A stretch of DNA of 64,000 nucleotides from Octopus vulgaris. Its lineage: Eukaryota. This document shows positions 2,533 to 29,462 of this stretch, piece after piece; position 1 is the stretch's first letter, and each line of letters starts with the position of its first letter. The stretch is taken from contig OX597817.1 in the NCBI GenBank assembly GCA_951406725.2, forward strand, positions 70,370,001 through 70,434,000, read 5' to 3'. The position numbers were made by a program, and so were the translations under genes. The notes below the pieces were generated by a model that saw only the letters and a list, made by a program, of their open reading frames with translations, was not told where the DNA came from and searched no databases.

Positions 2533-3454
2533 TATTCAGAGGTTAAAAGTATGATAGGTCAGGCACAGGTGACTTCTTGTAGAAGAGATACATTGCTAGC
2601 TCACATTACATAGGAGTATGGAGGAGCAGCTGGAAAGGAGATAAAGATGGTGACAAGGTGCTAGAGTGCACTCTCAAAAGACAAGAAAAAGCAATTATAA
2701 GAGCGAATGCAGAATAAGTGTCAGGGGAAGAAGGGTGGATAAGTACATGGGAATTTGAGAAGAGAGAGACAGGTGGTTAGAGATTGGGCAGTAGTGGTTA
2801 ATGCAGTGAAAAGTATGGTTGATGGTAAATATTAGTGTAAGAAGGTAAAAGCAATAGCTAAGGAAAAAGGAGGTAATAAGTGACAGTACTGGAGGGGTGG
2901 AGAGTAACAATATAACATTTAGATCAGTAAAAAATAAGGGAAAACCTGTAGATAGATTAGAAAATACAGAGATGATGTGCAGGGTGTAAGAATGGAAGGG
3001 GAGAGAAATGGCAGTCAGAGATGCATAGTCGTAGCCATAGCAAGTGGGAGACAAAGAGAGTGTGGGCATTGATAGCCAATGATGAGAGAGATAGCAGATG
3101 TGAGAGAGTATTAAATTGCTATGTTAATCTTCAGGTTCTTTGACTCTTGGTTTTGTTTCTCCACCTGAAATTTCTTTTAATAGATTCAGTTATAAGACCA
3201 ACATCATTGGTATATAGAAGTTCTTAAGAGCAATGGGTTTTAAATTCATCTTATATTTTTTGAAAGACATAAATTTGATATATACTACTTCTGTTTTGGA
3301 TTTAATCAGAATCTGGTGATACACATTGTTTATATTCATACCAACAGTGAACAAATTTCAATTTCAAAGAAATTTCAGCTCAATGTTTACGCCTTATTCT
3401 TCCTTTCATCCTGCAAGAGAATATACATTATGCTCAATATGAATTTCCTTTCTT

Positions 3455-3790
3455 TTGCTACCTGGATGATGAAGTTATTGCATGTGATGTGAGCAAAAAC
3501 ACATGCTGTGTTTAGAAGAAACCTGAAGAGGCACAGAACTGCAGCTGTTGATGTGTCCAGCATCAAGTTCCTACATTCTTGCATACAGTGATGGTGTGTG
3601 TAACCATATTATATCACACTTGCTACAACAGTTTCCTCAGATCCACAGTCAATGCAGCAGTCTATCGGAAATTCTTGAAACACTTTATGAATATGTCAGA
3701 TATCAGATTCTTTGGTGATATGAAATTTCTGTTCTTGTAGAATAAGGCATCTGCACACAAGACCAAAACAATCACTGCTTGCACTACTGA
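3455..3790 (+). mobile_element. Highly decayed Tc1 transposase relic
   Basis: Frame-broken translation KKPEEAQNCSC..SSIKF..FLRSTVNAAVYRKFLKHFM..FFGDMKFLFL*NKASAHKTK resembles the Tc1 catalytic domain up to the QQD-APAH motif. Confidence 0.55.
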
Positions 3791-4276
3791 TCAGCAAGGC
3801 TGCACAGATCCTTGACCATTGGATTAAAGAACATACTTTAAACTGTAAAAGCTGGTGATAGTGTAAACCAGTCAGTAAAATGTGATTTTCCTTCCTTAGT
3901 TAAAACAATGCACTAAAATTTTTTCAGTAAAATTTTTATTACAAAAACTTTTCAACAGAATGTGATTCTTTGTCTTTCCGACCTCTTATTTTTTTTTCTC
4001 GAAACTTACTTTGTGAAAACATACATTAATATCTGTATAATAAAGCTTTTATATGAAAATATTTTTATACCATCATTTTCATATAAATAGATATAATACA
4101 GATATATTCACCTTCAATATTTAATGCATTTTTAACCCTTTCATATTAACTTTCTTACATATACATATACAAATACATACACACATACATCAATATATAA
4201 ATGCATACTTCCACATATATAAACATATATACAAACAGCATCTTATATTAACAAAGACACGCACACACATACATGG

Positions 4277-4435
4277 TGGGCTTCTTTCAGTTTCCTACTA
4301 TCAAAACCTCTCACAAGGCTTTGACCAGCCTGGAGTTATAGTAGAAGACACTTACCCGAGTTGGCATGCAGTGAGTCTGAATATAAAACCATGTGGTTTG
4401 GAAGCAAACATCTAAACTACACTACCATACATGCA
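4277..4435 (-). mobile_element. SINE family A, 5' part
   Basis: Reverse complement of the family A head (CAAGTGTCTTCTACTATAGCC..GCCTTGTGAG..GAAACTGAAAGAAGCCC). Confidence 0.7.
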
Positions 4436-4477
4436 CCCAGAGCTATGTCTATGCCAATCACATGTGTATATGTGTAC

Positions 4478-4534
<57 letters not shown>

Positions 4535-4889
4535 TGTGGGCACATAATGAAAAACAAGATAGAAAGAATAACACTTTATTCTTTTCTACTCAAGGCACAA
4601 GGCCCGAAACTTGAGTATTTTATTAAAACTGTAAAGACTTCATGAACTGTAACTCATGTCTGTCTCGTGATCAGTTAGAAGGAAATCTGAGTAAACAGAT
4701 TGCAAAGTCTCTTTCAGCTTCAATAAAATACTGAGTGTGTACATGTGTGTGTAACACGTATACATGAGCAAGAAAGACAAAGAGGTTGACAGACAGACAG
4801 AATTATCTGTGAGCAAGATTAGAGAAAGCCAAATCGTAGCTGCAGTATTATATTATTTATATTGTAGGTGTATACATATTAATATGGGA

Positions 4890-5108
4890 GCCAACTAGGG
4901 TGCCACTACACATTCGTTTGATCTGCTAAAAATAGCATCCAAATCTTAATCATATCACACCGTGCTATTTCGAAATTGGAACAACATACAGAATTATAAT
5001 GCAAGCGTTGGTATATTGTGCCTAAGAAAAATATGAGATGTCCACAGCTGGAACACCTTTTAATCACAAATCTACTCAATCAAAGTTGATCTGTGACTAA
5101 ACAACAAT
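4890..5108 (+). repeat. Dispersed repeat with (AAC)n tail (family F, probable retroposon 3' end)
   Basis: CTGCTAAAATAGCA..CCAAATC..TTGATCTG..CTAAACAACAA; related segments at ~40880-41070 (-), ~48510-48570 and ~62230-62430 (-). Confidence 0.5.
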
Positions 5109-5939
5109 TTTTTAGTGGTATTACTATTGAACACACACACACACATGGTAGAAATTGAATAATAATACATTGACAACTTAATATCTTGCAATTCCCTTCC
5201 CCCCACTGTGCAGTGTTTTTTTTTTTTTCGTGATGATAGTTTTCATTCACAAACAGCACTTCAGATCAAAGGAATATCACCAACCCACTTCACCCTTCAT
5301 AGAAAGTTTTCATTATACCACAAATAATAAGGTAAACTAAGAAGAAGAAAGAAAAGCAAAAAAAGAATTAATAGTAGTAATAGTTTTATGCATGCAGACA
5401 CGATAAAAATATATTCACAACCTTAGTATATTACAATTCCTCCATCAAGCATTGCCCTACGTGGGTAGTCTTGATGGTGCTTTCCATTTGAAAATAGCCA
5501 TTTCAAATCAAAAGAATGCAAATGTAAATACAAAAATAAGTAAAAGGAGCTCCTTATAATACAACAGCAATATAAAAAAAAATCTAAGGAAATAACTAAC
5601 TGCAAGCTTATTGCATTTGAAGGTTTACACTATGTTTTATAAATAGCTTTTTTGTCTTTTTGTTTTTTGTCTTGCTTTGGTTTTTATTTTGCTTTTTTCT
5701 GGTTTTCATCACTGGGCTGTGACCACATTGGTGGAGGGGAAGATGTGCTACATTCTGAGGTATAGTTGATTACATCGACCTCTCAGCATTAATTTTATTG
5801 ACTAGCGCTTATTTTATTGACCTCAGAAGGATGAAACGTAACGTGGATCTGGAATGCATTTGAAGTTAAGAGTAGAAAAAGGACATATGTAGATAAGAAC
5901 TGTATGTATTGCATAACATACACTCACACACATACACAC

Positions 5940-9204: not shown

Positions 9205-9900
9205 ACACAGAGTGCGATGGGTAAATTGTTGCAATTTTATGTTTTTAATTTCACACATTGCGTATTGTTTTTTGATTCTGTTGACTATGCAGTATAGTAG
9301 GGTCAGTTGGGCAGCATCTGTGAGAAAGGCAGCACCATGATACAATTCACTCTGCCAGAAATTTGGAAACTGCATGCTGTAGCTGCTTGGCATTTGTGCT
9401 GGAAGCTCCAATACAAACATTTCAGAGAGTTTGGATGTAAATCTGAGGATACAATAATCTGAGGACATGCACCAAGAATGATAGAAATCAAACATCCAAT
9501 CAATATCATGGTATTTGGAGTGATCTCTAGTAATGGCAACGTTATGCCTCTATTCATCTTCACAAAAGGCCTCAGACTCAACAGAGAGGCCTACATCAAG
9601 TGCCTGGAGGAAGTAATACTACCCTGGGTCAAGAGGATAGCTGCTGGAAGACCCTATGTCTGGCAACAAGACTTTGCACCAAGCTACACAAGCAGGAGAA
9701 CCCAGTCATAACTGTCAGACAATTTCTGCAACCACATCACTCCTAACATTTGGCCACCTAACTCCCCAGACTGCAACCCACTTGAATATTATGTATGGTG
9801 CACAGTTGAACGAGAGACCAACAAAACTCCTTGTAACACCAAAGATGAACTGAAAGCAAGGATTACGGCAACATTTACAAACTTAAACAAGCAGATTGTA
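9205..9900 (+). mobile_element. maT (DD37D)-type Tc1/mariner relic, internally deleted
   Basis: KHPINIMVFGVISSNG..WQQDFAPSYTSRRTQS*LSDNF..WPPNSPDCNPLEYYVW; 37 residues lie between the QQD Asp and the final acidic residue; stop codon present and first catalytic D region missing. Confidence 0.8.
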
Positions 9901-20674: not shown

Positions 20675-21165
20675 AGTTCTATATTTACAGTTCTATTATT
20701 TACATTAGACAGATATTTGTCCTCATCTTGTTTTTTGTTAACACATTTCAGCTGATATAGCCTCCAGCCTTCTTCAGGTGTCTTGGGGAAATTTCGAACC
20801 TGGGTTCTCATTCCTAAGGTATTTTTTGATGTTATAATTATTATTATTGTTAAGGTCATTGCTTGAAATCGAACTCGGAATCTTGGGGTTAGTAGCCCGT
20901 GCTCTTAACCACTATGCCACGGGCATATGGCATAGTGGTTAAGAGCGTGGGCTATTAACCCCAAGATTCTGAGTTTGATTCCAAGCAGTGACCTGAACAA
21001 TAACAATAATAATAATAACAACAACATCAAAAATACCATAGGAACGAGAACCCAAGTTCAAAATTTCCCCAAGACACCTGAAGAAGGCTGGAGGCTATAT
21101 CAGCCAAAACGTTGTGTTAACAACAAACAAGATGAGGACAAATATCCATCAAATGTAAATTATGT
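20675..21165. mobile_element. Fold-back element: head-to-head tRNA-like head + (AAT)n + hammerhead-like module, 13-bp TSD
   Basis: Arms ~20695-20919 and 20928-21160 are reverse complements; TSD AAATTGTTAGTAC at 20662-20674 and 21166-21178; A box TGGCATAGTGG and B box GTTYGATTYC. Confidence 0.85.
21073..21118 (+). ncRNA. Degenerate minimal type-I hammerhead ribozyme (C3:G8 core)
   Basis: GACAC-CTGAAGA-A-GGCTG[10]CAGCC-(G>A)AAAC-GTT-GTGTT; stem I GACAC/GTGTT, palindromic ACGT stem III; the mirror copy at 20740-20782 keeps GAAA. Confidence 0.65.
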
Positions 21166-25042: not shown

Positions 25043-25376
25043 TTGTGTCTGGGAAGACTCATTTTCTTTTTGTGCCATATTATTTAACACACTCACCGGT
25101 AAAATTTCCACTTTTTTCTTAGTTTTATTGTCTGAAAATTTTCGTTGCGTCTTGCAACCCTTTCAATAATTTTAAGAGTCAAAACTATCGCACATTTTGC
25201 AAGACGCAACGAAAATTTTAGGACAATAAAAATAAGAAAAAGTGGAAATTTTACCGGTGAGTGTGTTAAATAATATGGCACAAAAAGAAAATGACTCTCC
25301 CCAGACACAACAGAATATGCTTCAACACACGAACTCATATAAAGAATCTTGCAAACCAAATCCAAAAACGAAATAT
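25042..25376. mobile_element. Fold-back PLE-like terminal element with one-sided extension
   Basis: Arms 25042-25157 and 25197-25311 are reverse complements; 65-bp extension shared with 58869-58931; contains GTTGC-AAGAC-GCAAC-GAAA. Confidence 0.75.
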
Positions 25377-25387
25377 ACATATACATT

Positions 25388-25421
<34 letters not shown>

Positions 25422-25749
25422 CATATATATTTATACATATATATATATATGTAGATATATATATATATACATATATATTTATACATATATATATATATGT
25501 AGATATATATATATACATATATATTTATACATATATATATATATGTAGATATATATATATACATATATATTTATACATATATATATATATAGATATATAT
25601 ATATACATATATATTTATATATATATATATATGTAGATATATATATACATATATATTTATACATATATATATATATGTAGATATATATATATACATATAT
25701 ATTTATACATATATATATATATGTAGATATATATATATGCATATATATT

Positions 25750-25787
<38 letters not shown>

Positions 25788-25822
25788 TTATATATATATA
25801 TATATATATATACATATACATT

Positions 25823-25854
<32 letters not shown>

Positions 25855-25855
25855 C

Positions 25856-25895
<40 letters not shown>

Positions 25896-25896
25896 C

Positions 25897-25941
<45 letters not shown>

Positions 25942-25952
25942 TATACATATAC

Positions 25953-26048
<96 letters not shown>

Positions 26049-26053
26049 CATTA

Positions 26054-26127
<74 letters not shown>

Positions 26128-26128
26128 C

Positions 26129-26170
<42 letters not shown>

Positions 26171-26176
26171 CATTTT

Positions 26177-26208
<32 letters not shown>

Positions 26209-26807
26209 TACATATGCATGTATATATAAGTTAATGCATACATGTATAGATATATATTTACATATGTATACATATATAAATATGCATACAAAATATATGT
26301 GTGTATGTGTTTGTAAATATATAAATACACACACATTTATTATCTACATGTATGTATACATATTTCTAACTACTTAAATATATAAAACTATTTATGTGAT
26401 TATATGTATATAAATATAGTATCTATATTTGTCTATATATATTTACGCATATATATGTATATATATGTATGTCTATATATATTTTTGTGCATGTGTATAT
26501 CTAAATCTAAATATATATATCTGTATGAATGTGTGTATATATAATGTATATATGCACAAGCATAATAACATTGATATTAATACAAAAAGATGGATTGCAG
26601 TCACTATTTCTATTGACTACAATTGTTTCAACACATTATTACCAGCTGTTGATTGCAGAATTACACAAATTGCTTGCAATTTTACATTAACATGTTTCAA
26701 TTGCAGATGTATACATACGCATCCTCAGGTGACCAAAGCCAAGACACTGCTGTATCATCTTCATATATATACCTCTACATATACATAGATGCACACACGT
26801 ATCAAAG

Positions 26808-26839
<32 letters not shown>

Positions 26840-27054
26840 CTATATATATATATATATCAATATCTATATATATATATATCAATATATATATATATATATA
26901 TCAATATCTATATATATATATATATCAATATCTATATATATATATATATATATCAATATCTGTATATATATATATATATATCAATATCTGTATATATATA
27001 TATATATATATCAATATCTGTATATATATATATATATTAATATATATATCAATA

Positions 27055-27089
<35 letters not shown>

Positions 27090-27481
27090 ATATCTGTATA
27101 TATATATATGTATATATATATATTTATATCTATATATATATATATATCAATACCCTCCTTCCCTTCTTTCCTGAGCGTCCAATATAACTATATTTGTTCC
27201 ACATCCTCGCGTTGTTGTGTTTTTACGTGTTTTTTTGTTTGGATTAACTTTATATATATATATATTTATCAATATTTATATCTATATATATATATCTATC
27301 AATATCTTTATATATACATATATATATCAATATTTATATCAATATCTATCTATATATATATATCAATATCTTGATATATACATATATATAAATAAATATC
27401 AATATGTCAATATCCATATATATATATATATATATCAATATTTATATATATATATATATATCTATATCTATATGTCGATAT

Positions 27482-27517
<36 letters not shown>

Positions 27518-27520
27518 TAT
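25377..27520. repeat. Compound (TA)n microsatellite/minisatellite field
   Basis: ~40-bp unit CATATATATTTATACATATA..TGTAGA at 25410-25740; TATATATCAATATCT unit at 26840-27150. Confidence 0.95.
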
Positions 27521-27522
27521 TA

Positions 27523-27724
27523 TATTTTATAGAAGGAGCTTCTACAGGACTAGAACTGTTTCATTCAAAAGAAATCATCAGGAAGTGCTGATGAGCTTCC
27601 TGATGATTTCTTTTGAATGAAATAGTTCTAGTCCTGTAGAACTCCTTCTATAAAATAAATTAATTTACTCTGCTATGTATTGAGTACCTTATTTACTGTG
27701 GTTAACCCCGACTCAACCCGGGAC
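27523..27724. mobile_element. Fold-back PLE-like terminal element with a hammerhead on each strand
   Basis: Arms 27523-27585 and 27596-27657, 10-nt spacer, one-sided ~65-bp extension, embedded in (TA)n. Confidence 0.8.
27593..27644 (+). ncRNA. Type-I hammerhead ribozyme motif (C3:G8, GUA cleavage triplet)
   Basis: GAGCTTC-CTGATGA-T-TTC[TTTT]GAA-T-GAA-ATAG[TTCTAGTC]CTGT-A-GAACTC; the minus-strand arm has ACAG/CTGT stem III and GAAGCTC. Confidence 0.7.
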
Positions 27725-27725
27725 C

Positions 27726-27796
<71 letters not shown>

Positions 27797-27870
27797 ATAC
27801 ATATATTTATATATCATATATATCCAAATATATATACATATATATATCAATCTCTCTCTCTGTATATATA

Positions 27871-27913
<43 letters not shown>

Positions 27914-28674: not shown

Positions 28675-29462
28675 TACAGGGATTGGACAAAATAACACCT
28701 AGCATCATAATTTTGAAATATCTATAAAATCATTAAAAGCTTGTATATTTTTATATTTTTGGATTTATTATTAGCGCTGCTTAATATGTTTGGGAAAATT
28801 GATGTTTCTTTTCAGATACTATCAGAAGAATATAATAAAAATTCATTAAAATGACACATGTATCAGACTTTCAAAGAGGTCAAATTGTTGGTGCTCGTAT
28901 GTCAGGCGCTAGCATGACGAAAACAGCCGAAATGTTTGGTCTATCACGAAGAACTGTTTCGAAAGTAACGACACCCCTTGAGAAAGAGGGAAAAACCTCT
29001 TCGCCAAAACAAAACTCCAGAAGAAAACCAAAACTTTCAGAGAGGGACTGTCAGAGTCTTATGCAAATTGTTAGAAAGGATCACAAAAGTACAACTCCCA
29101 AAATTACTACAGAGCTTAATGACCACCTCGAGAACCCAGTTTCCACAAAAACCATTTGCTGGGAGCTGCACAAAAGTGGATTTCAAGAGAAGCTGCAATC
29201 AGAAAACCACTACTTTCAAAAACAAACATTGCAAAACATTTAGAGTGGAGTAAAAACCTAGTGAATTGGTCCCTATCACAGTGGAAGAATGTTATTTTCT
29301 CGGACGAGTGATTCTTTACCATATTTCCGAGTATACGTGTGGAGACAGCCAAAAGAAGCATTTGACCCAGACTGCCTTCTTCCAACTGTTAAACATGTAG
29401 GAGGACCTGTGATGATCTGGGGGACTATATCTTGGAAATCCGCCACCCCAATGGTTTCCCTT
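28675..29462 (+). mobile_element. Tc1 transposon, left TIR plus 3'-truncated transposase pseudogene
   Basis: TA-CAGGGATTGGACAAAATAA start; ORF 28851 MTHVSDFQRGQIVGARMSGAS..RRKPKLSERD..; after frameshifts WKNVIFSDE..RVYVWRQPKEAFDPDCLLPTVKHVGGPVMIWG. Confidence 0.9.

What the first reader, a model, noticed from the sequence alone, without database searches (positions are those of the whole stretch)
27523..27724. Two opposed hammerhead motifs in a 135-bp fold-back within (TA)n
Seen: 63-bp inverted arms each encode CUGAUGA..GAAA with a 4-bp stem III (ACAG/CUGU; loop contains palindromic CUAG), a GUA triplet and stem I GAGCUUC/GAAGCUC, which is complete only when both arms are combined. This is the most canonical hammerhead in the window; its weak point is a U-U closing a 3-bp stem II instead of G-C. 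Inference: a PLE pseudo-LTR remnant that could cut transcripts from either strand, unless the long hairpin sequesters both motifs.
Basis: partly seen in the sequence, partly recalled or inferred. Interest (0 to 1): 0.7.

Follow-up and report, generated by a model that had tools for sequence, protein, structure and literature searches.

The report
Folded-back Penelope retrotransposon stub with hammerheads
The mirror-image repeat with two hammerhead-ribozyme motifs is real, but it is one of some 2,000 short end-pieces of a protein-coding Penelope-type jumping gene, a known kind of insertion; it was likely made by copying one RNA twice from two fixed points, and its hairpin is predicted to keep both ribozymes shut.

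Summary
The fold-back and both hammerhead motifs are real. It is a slightly mutated copy of an abundant repeat (2,060 exact tail matches). The same sequence is the pseudo-LTR of a protein-coding Penelope-like element with Hydra-clade motifs; an intact 713-aa ORF exists. Of 100 unselected copies, 76 are head-to-head fold-backs. One arm ends at pLTR position 333, the other at about 267, and about 60% of arms stop at the 5' edge of the hammerhead, not at its cut site. Arms share subfamily variants (63 of 70). Likely mechanism: two reverse-transcription starts on one uncleaved RNA, run-off at its 5' end, and joining of the two cDNA ends. In the parent each arm has a complete 6-bp stem I; the 'split' stem is damage in this copy. 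U10.1-U11.1 is a published natural variant. The hairpin beats the ribozyme fold by 65-69 kcal/mol, so cutting of host transcripts is unlikely. The structure type is in print, and this scan noted the same design in other families on other DNA of this genome.

The parts
27524..27585 (-). Short arm: inverted copy of pLTR positions about 202-263; outer end merges into (TA)n near the family's position-267 end
27575..27581 (-). Hammerhead core CUGAUGA of the short arm (stem I cut to 4 bp by the junction)
27559..27562 (-). GAAA core of the short arm, followed by stem III ACAG/CUGU
27543..27545 (-). GUA triplet of the short arm (predicted cut site)
   Evidence: cleavage untested
27586..27593 (.). Copy-specific 8-nt junction; it ends in a G that no upstream-extending copy has at this position
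27594..27728 (+). Long arm: pLTR positions 200-333 plus AC; 98.5% identical to the 5' pLTR of the ORF-bearing element L092
27600..27606 (+). Hammerhead core CUGAUGA of the long arm
27619..27622 (+). GAAA core of the long arm; next base mutated C to T against the family (U-G in stem III)
27636..27638 (+). GUA triplet of the long arm; the 3' strand of stem I lacks one G
27661..27728 (+). One-sided tail (66 nt between the two fixed 3' ends, plus AC); in the parent it is 5' leader ahead of the ORF; holds a small predicted UACUC/GAGUA hairpin also present in the sister family
25373..27523 (.). Left (TA)n-rich array (insertion target)
27729..27912 (.). Right (TA)n array (insertion target)

Best explanation
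This is a truncated, head-to-head insertion of the hammerhead-bearing pseudo-LTR of a Hydra-type Penelope-like retrotransposon, likely made in one event in which both cut ends of a (TA)n target primed reverse transcription on the same uncleaved RNA at two sites 66 nt apart. Both cDNAs would run off near the RNA's likely 5' end at the edge of hammerhead stem I and be joined there, often through the AGCT palindrome or with a few extra bases. The two hammerheads are a by-product of this doubling. They are predicted to be shut by the hairpin, and in this copy they are also damaged. Shown: family, parent ORF, two fixed outer ends, clustered inner ends, arm concordance. Inferred: twin priming, the 5' end or cap, and inactivity.
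For: Parent: copies that continue past the tail run into an ORF. L092 and L200 are pLTR-ORF-UTR-pLTR, and L200 has 722 open codons with YRDD and a C-terminal LVY..YIG nuclease motif. Outer ends: 76 of 100 tail-selected copies are fold-backs, all 76 short arms ending at 265-275. Of 30 copies selected by the 267 end, 23 have an inverted partner carrying the tail (22 to 333, 1 to 303), 7 have none, and 0 are 267/267. In 5 longer insertions with both ends in view the ends are again one of each; in 4 of them the inverted arm is the 333 one and the body ends at 267 (L073, L077, L085/L094, L095; L178 the reverse). So 267 is a primary end, not only a mirror of the long arm. Inner ends at 198-209: 45 of 76 long arms and 46 of 76 short arms; at the cut site (243-249): 1 and 5. 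Same template: loop II variant concordant in 63 of 70 copies (shuffled mean 34.8, max 47 in 20,000), and the A/T variant at 260 in 67 of 68. Extra G before position 200 in 16 of 24 non-templated, non-palindromic ends, or 10 of 15 after I removed by eye the 9 whose last base could come from the partner arm (p = 0.0008 against 0.25); upstream-extending copies have T, C or A there, never G. A sister family (43% protein identity) shows the same short/long pairing in 8 of 8 pairs, with a 71-nt tail. In vitro, a Poseidon PLE cleaves and extends both strands, starts at two sites that define the tail, and uses uncleaved RNA (PMC11167929, parts 1-2 read).
Against: No transcript 5' end was observed; position 200 could instead be a 3' splice site (AG|C), a pause or a microhomology hotspot. 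The extra G could come from snap-back on stem I or from untemplated addition rather than a cap. Arm concordance could arise from later gene conversion, and 7 of 70 copies are discordant. The 8 non-overlapping-arm copies are not decisive: one (L146) is an internal deletion and the others could be. Some junctions recur across copies, so spread of some whole fold-backs is not excluded. The 100-copy and 30-copy sets come from contig C1 only and overlap each other, and the short-arm filter required an end at 255 or beyond. The sister family reads upstream through its hammerhead far more often.
Confidence: 0.75

Rival explanations
1. Self-priming or snap-back: a single cDNA (or an antisense RNA, as proposed in PMC3846280) folds back at the AGCT palindrome and copies itself, giving the mirror arm.
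For: Perfect AGCT-centred palindromes are the commonest junction (22 arm ends in the unselected set). Arm concordance is also predicted by this model. It is the published reading of PLE head-to-head palindromes (PMC3846280, passages seen).
Against: The short arm ends at a fixed site that also ends long non-inverted copies: 5 of the 7 solo 267-ends reach upstream of 200. In four longer insertions the inverted arm starts at 333 while the body ends at 267. In 18 of 76 fold-backs the inner ends differ by more than 20 nt.
Confidence: 0.13
2. A self-propagating non-autonomous fold-back element (MITE-like or retrozyme-like) that moves as a whole 200-bp unit.
For: High copy number, uniform size, 93-100% identity among the 40 scored candidates. 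Some junction types recur, and a stem I deletion is shared by several right arms.
Against: The inverted repeat is not terminal, since the tail is on one side only. Junctions and inner ends vary from copy to copy. The same junction occurs on different loop II backgrounds (L003 and L020). No tandem arrays of the unit were seen in the loci read. The sequence is the pLTR of an ORF-bearing element.
Confidence: 0.07
3. A functional bidirectional ribozyme that cuts host transcripts of either strand.
For: Both cores are intact in this copy, and both core positions are retained in 43 of 76 fold-backs. Parent subfamily variants inside the motif fall at N7, loop II and loop III, which fits selection on the ribozyme in the active lineage.
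Against: A gap of 65-69 kcal/mol favours the hairpin, and the antisense arm is always made first. Isolated arms of this copy hardly adopt the fold (mean stem-pair probability 0.04 and 0.06, against 0.15 and 0.38 for parent arms). PLE hammerheads of animals cleave weakly alone (PMC4209133) or need the protein (PMC11167929).
Confidence: 0.04

Closest known systems
Hydra clade of C-terminal-EN Penelope-like elements (Craig et al. 2021, PMC8557442), including Hydra-1_Obim in its supplement
   Same: RW[KR], DKT, CxCX5C linker, CxxC and CxH near the C-terminus, no cysteine pair inside the GIY-YIG stretch, about 710-aa single ORF, 3' hammerhead, (TA)n target.
   Different: A different family: six short query strings from this family and its sister found no match in the supplement text (line breaks could hide a match). 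It has RWR for RWK. The pLTR-to-pLTR unit is about 4.3-4.8 kb against 'generally <3 kb', because of a 1.8-2 kb TG/TA-rich 3' UTR.
Inverted-pLTR-plus-tail insertion units of EN+ PLEs (PMC3846280; Fig. 2 legend of PMC8557442)
   Same: Adjacent inverted 5'-truncated copy, head-to-head palindrome at the junction, tail at one end only.
   Different: The tail is 66 nt rather than 30-40. Most copies are tiny stubs with no ORF. The two outer ends are nearly always one of each kind, and the inner ends pile up at the hammerhead's 5' edge; I did not find these counts in the passages read.
[quoted passage not shown]
   Same: Type I motif in the pLTR with a palindromic helix III region; the paper notes dual motifs on opposite strands about 100-700 bp apart in Schistosoma.
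   Different: 4-bp stem III with an 8-nt near-palindromic loop; U-U in place of the usual G10.1-C11.1; cores only 19 nt apart.
Poseidon element PAc in vitro (Frangieh et al. 2024, PMC11167929)
   Same: Two reverse-transcription start sites define the tail; both strands are extended; uncleaved RNA is the template.
   Different: Different clade; the paper does not follow the products to head-to-head insertions in the parts read.
Non-LTR retrozymes (bioRxiv 10.64898/2026.07.22.740005, part 1 of 5 read)
   Same: Short non-coding, hammerhead-bearing sequences derived from PLE pLTRs.
   Different: Retrozymes are direct tandem repeats with two or more hammerheads on one strand; this is an inverted pair with one per strand.

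Membership tests
EN+ Penelope-like element (pLTR remnant) | Sequence is the pLTR of an element with RT and C-terminal GIY-YIG-type nuclease in one ORF | tested here: met
   Long arm 93-98.5% identical to pLTRs of L091, L092, L200, L201; L200 ORF has YRDD at 356 and LVY..YIG at 595. Pfam support is weak (RVT_1 E = 0.003 on a fragment, below cut-off). 1117 homologues at E <= 0.001, many with PF26215 and 2 of the 120 listed with PF01541.
EN+ Penelope-like element (pLTR remnant) | Partial tandem or inverted 5'-truncated copies and a one-sided tail | tested here: met
Hydra clade | RWK, DKT, CxCX5C linker, CxxC and CxH, no CCHH | tested here: met
   RWR (RWK in the sister family), DKT, CNCPDKTTC, CDLC, CMH; one cysteine only between LVY and YIG (against the text)
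Hydra clade | Insertion into (TA)n | tested here: met
   (TA)3 within 6 nt of the 3' end in 87 of 100 copies; beside the short arm in 75 of 76
Hydra clade | RT tree places it inside Hydra | not tested
   No reference sequences were loaded; likeness to the supplement's Hydra proteins was seen by eye only
Type I hammerhead ribozyme | Core CUGANGA, GAAA, UH with three stems | tested here: met
   Parent arm has stem I 6 bp, stem II 3 bp, stem III 4 bp; window arms have stem I of 3 and 4 bp
Type I hammerhead ribozyme | G10.1-C11.1 pair | tested here: not met
   U-U throughout the family, A-A in the sister family; U10.1-U11.1 is reported in natural hammerheads (PMC3088659 passage)
Type I hammerhead ribozyme | Match to an Rfam hammerhead model | tested here: not met
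   None among 97 hits at E <= 10 on 27515-27730
Type I hammerhead ribozyme | Self-cleavage at GUA | not testable with these tools
   Needs an in vitro assay; genomic ends do not pile up at the cut site (1 of 76 and 5 of 76)
Non-LTR retrozyme | Direct tandem repeats, each with a type I hammerhead on the same strand | tested here: not met
   The tail motif occurred once in each of the 30 loci of about 3 kb counted; the arrangement is inverted
MITE | Terminal inverted repeats and fixed internal sequence | tested here: not met
   66-nt tail outside the inverted repeat; the centre varies between copies

The most novel reading that the evidence does not exclude
The roughly 1,500 fold-back stubs of this family are a genomic record of how Penelope elements build inverted repeats: an obligately asymmetric twin priming at two fixed sites on one capped, ribozyme-uncut RNA whose 5' end is the first base of hammerhead stem I. 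That would overturn the antisense self-priming model, place the hammerhead at the very start of the mRNA, and, with an intact ORF at hand, make the question testable in vitro. The stubs would also be a large source of perfect 60-bp double-stranded RNA.
Probability: 0.5. Interest if true: 0.5.

Novelty: new member of a known kind. Interest (0 to 1): 0.27.

Why it matters
This copy is ordinary: a dead stub among thousands. The family is useful because its many near-identical stubs give counts on a question that PMC8557442 calls open, namely how PLE tandem and inverted structures form, and because an intact ORF with both pLTRs is present for biochemistry. It also warns that such palindromes look like microRNA hairpins or MITEs to automatic tools: the top Rfam hits were hairpin microRNA models, all below their gathering scores.

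Tried and rejected
Rfam scans: the whole-window scan listed only the best 150 of 387 hits, mostly microsatellite-driven microRNA models; the local scan gave no hammerhead. PDB sequence search with the 713-aa ORF found nothing at E <= 1. Pfam gave no match above cut-off for five ORF pieces. tblastn of the two ORFs against the window found nothing, so no parent lies in the window. Sequencing runs: no RNA holder listed. Four runs guessed to be RNA were contigs only and showed no splice joint, start or end on L092:600-1500; this says nothing on expression. An intron from pLTR position 2 (GTGAG) to 201 (AG) was considered; no spliced genomic copy was evident in the loci read, so it stays a rival for the stop at 200. 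Hammerhead cleavage as the source of the 5' truncation was rejected, since few ends lie at 243-249. A genome-wide count of 267/267 against 267/333 pairs was not obtained; the pairing counts rest on contig C1 samples. Literature searches: 'octopus + penelope + hammerhead' gave 5 papers, 'penelope-like + twin priming + inverted' 2, and 'penelope, head-to-head, palindrome, self-priming' 8. From titles and abstract starts none describes this family or twin priming in PLEs; subscription papers, Repbase and Dfam were not searchable. A look-up of earlier scan notes by this sequence found nothing.

Full report
Observation. The sequence at 27524-27656 is an inverted repeat with 62-nt arms that differ by one substitution and one 1-nt gap. 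It folds at -99.7 kcal/mol, z = -21, with 0 of 200 shuffles as stable. Each strand carries CUGAUGA, a 12-nt stem II region, GAAA, a stem III region and GUA. A one-sided unique tail follows to 27728, and (TA)n-rich arrays lie on both sides. The + strand motif has AUAG instead of ACAG and lacks one G of stem I. Rfam hammerhead models do not match (0 of 97 hits at E <= 10).

It is a repeat family. A DNA search of the own genome (2.8 Gb) gave 1,058 candidates; the 40 scored match at 93-100%. A 27-nt tail pattern has 2,060 exact matches, with 0 for the reversed control. In the 30 best loci, most right arms have CAG and the full GAAGCTC and nearly all left arms are intact. The 'split' stem I is therefore damage in this copy; the same deleted G occurs in several other right arms.

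The parent. Of 29 matches in which the tail is followed by two G/C letters within 8 nt, ten continue with the same unique sequence, which leads into an ORF. L092 is pLTR (626-955), broken ORF, a 1.8-kb TG/TA-rich UTR, and pLTR (4954-5295). L200, on the window's contig, has 722 open codons (713 aa from Met) between two pLTRs; L201 has 718. The window's long arm is 98.5% identical to the 5' pLTR of L092 and 94.9% to that of L200. The protein has RWR, DKT, YRDD, CxCX5C, LVY..YIG with a single cysteine between, CxxC and CxH. These are the features listed for the Hydra clade (PMC8557442, section 11 read whole; other passages). That paper's supplement lists a cephalopod member, Hydra-1_Obim, a different family with visibly similar motifs (search hits only). 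I built no tree. Pfam support is weak; 1,117 database homologues were found.

Anatomy across copies. I use positions on the 333-nt pLTR of L050: stem I starts at 200, the core at 206, the cut would follow 244. I read the first 100 exact tail matches on contig C1. Of these 76 are fold-backs and 24 are not. All 76 short arms end at 265-275. Of 30 loci picked by the 267 end, 23 have an inverted tail-bearing partner, 7 have none (5 of them reach upstream of 200), and none is 267/267 (this set overlaps the first). Five longer insertions with both ends in view also have one end of each kind, four with the inverted arm at 333 and the body ending at 267. Inner ends lie at 198-209 in 45 of 76 long arms and 46 of 76 short arms, upstream of 198 in 9 and 9, and at 243-249 in 1 and 5. 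L178 has a forward arm starting at 202 that runs into the ORF. Loop II variants agree between arms in 63 of 70 copies (41 unselected plus 29 best-hit; shuffled mean 34.8, maximum 47), and the variant at 260 in 67 of 68. A G precedes position 200 in 16 of 24 non-templated, non-palindromic ends of the unselected set. After I removed by eye the 9 whose last base could belong to the partner arm, it is 10 of 15 (p = 0.0008 against 0.25). Copies with upstream pLTR have T, C or A there. A sister family (43% protein identity; 3,796 exact motif matches) shows short/long pairing in 8 of 8 pairs among 30 loci and a 71-nt tail, though it more often reads upstream through its hammerhead.

The ribozyme. In the parent each arm forms stem I 6 bp, stem II 3 bp behind a U-U, and stem III 4 bp with a near-palindromic loop whose self-duplex is -12.8 kcal/mol, or -15.2 in the subfamily of L201. 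Common variants inside the motif are at N7 and loop II and, in the L177-L194 group, loop III. Sequence just upstream of 200 varies densely, but sequence downstream of the motif is also conserved, so this is only modest evidence of selection. U10.1-U11.1 is a reported natural variant (PMC3088659, passages). In the window copy, forcing the hammerhead stems costs 69.4 (+) and 64.5 (-) kcal/mol against the hairpin, and because the motifs point outward from the centre the antisense arm is transcribed first either way. Animal PLE hammerheads cleaved weakly in vitro (PMC4209133, parts 1-2 of 4 read), and the PAc one needed protein and was not required for insertion (PMC11167929, parts 1-2 of 4 read). 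Activity was not tested here.

Mechanism. Shown: pLTR origin, two fixed outer ends paired one of each, inner ends clustered at the edge of stem I, arms from the same variant. Inferred: both target ends prime on one uncleaved RNA at the two sites, the cDNAs stop at the RNA's 5' end near position 200 and are joined head to head. This extends the in vitro result of PMC11167929 and differs from the antisense self-priming proposed in PMC3846280 (passages). Open points: no RNA end was observed, the stop at 200 also fits a splice acceptor or a microhomology hotspot, concordance could reflect conversion, and the samples are from one contig.

Novelty. Inverted pLTRs with a one-sided tail, opposite-strand hammerhead pairs and the Hydra clade are all in print. 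This family and the end statistics were not found in my searches. Earlier notes of this scan describe the same design, including two fixed starts and capped RNA, in other families on other pieces of this genome (unreviewed; my reading was logged before that look-up, and they name the animal as an octopus, which I did not test). Verdict: a new member of a known kind. This copy is a fossil; the family is of moderate mechanistic use. Interest 0.27.

Noticed in passing
window 20720-21135: A second, older fold-back (arms 83-87% complementary) with a hammerhead-like CUGAAGA..GAAA motif at - 20777; another family.
   Followed up: no
window 45068 (+) and 52393 (-): Two related degenerate CUGANGA..GAAA motifs, apparently two copies of one further repeat; more weak motifs at 9459 (+), 26728 (-), 50003 (-) and 58497 (+).
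   Followed up: no
window 27153-27250: A 100-nt unique stretch inside the left (TA)n array that resembles flanks of L047 and L024, likely the end of another (TA)n-targeting repeat.
   Followed up: no
window 28839-29243: A 134-aa open frame that looks by eye like the helix-turn-helix end of a Tc1/mariner transposase (recalled resemblance, not searched).
   Followed up: no
L092 3134-4953; L095 3182-5467; L094 about 3175-5320: The parent element carries a 1.8-2.3 kb strand-biased TG/TA-rich 3' UTR (24% G, 6% C in L092), partly alike between copies; the element may itself spread microsatellite-like DNA.
   Followed up: partly
L195-L199, L239-L268: Sister Hydra-type family with many intact 727-codon frames and 3,796 exact hammerhead-motif matches; its motif has an A-A at the base of a 2-bp GCAA-loop stem II, and an initiator-like CCATTCT just upstream of where fold-backs end.
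   Followed up: partly
L177-L194: A near-identical subfamily in which several copies have an open frame of the same 506 codons against 718 in L201, so one broken source copy may have been amplified.
   Followed up: no
window 27661-27728 and L240: Both families' tails hold a UACUC..GAGUA motif pair with GTATT(T)GAG; a similar stretch is visible at the 3' end of the Hydra consensus printed just before Hydra-1_Obim in the PMC8557442 supplement. Candidate protein-binding hairpin; it folded as such only in this family.
   Followed up: partly
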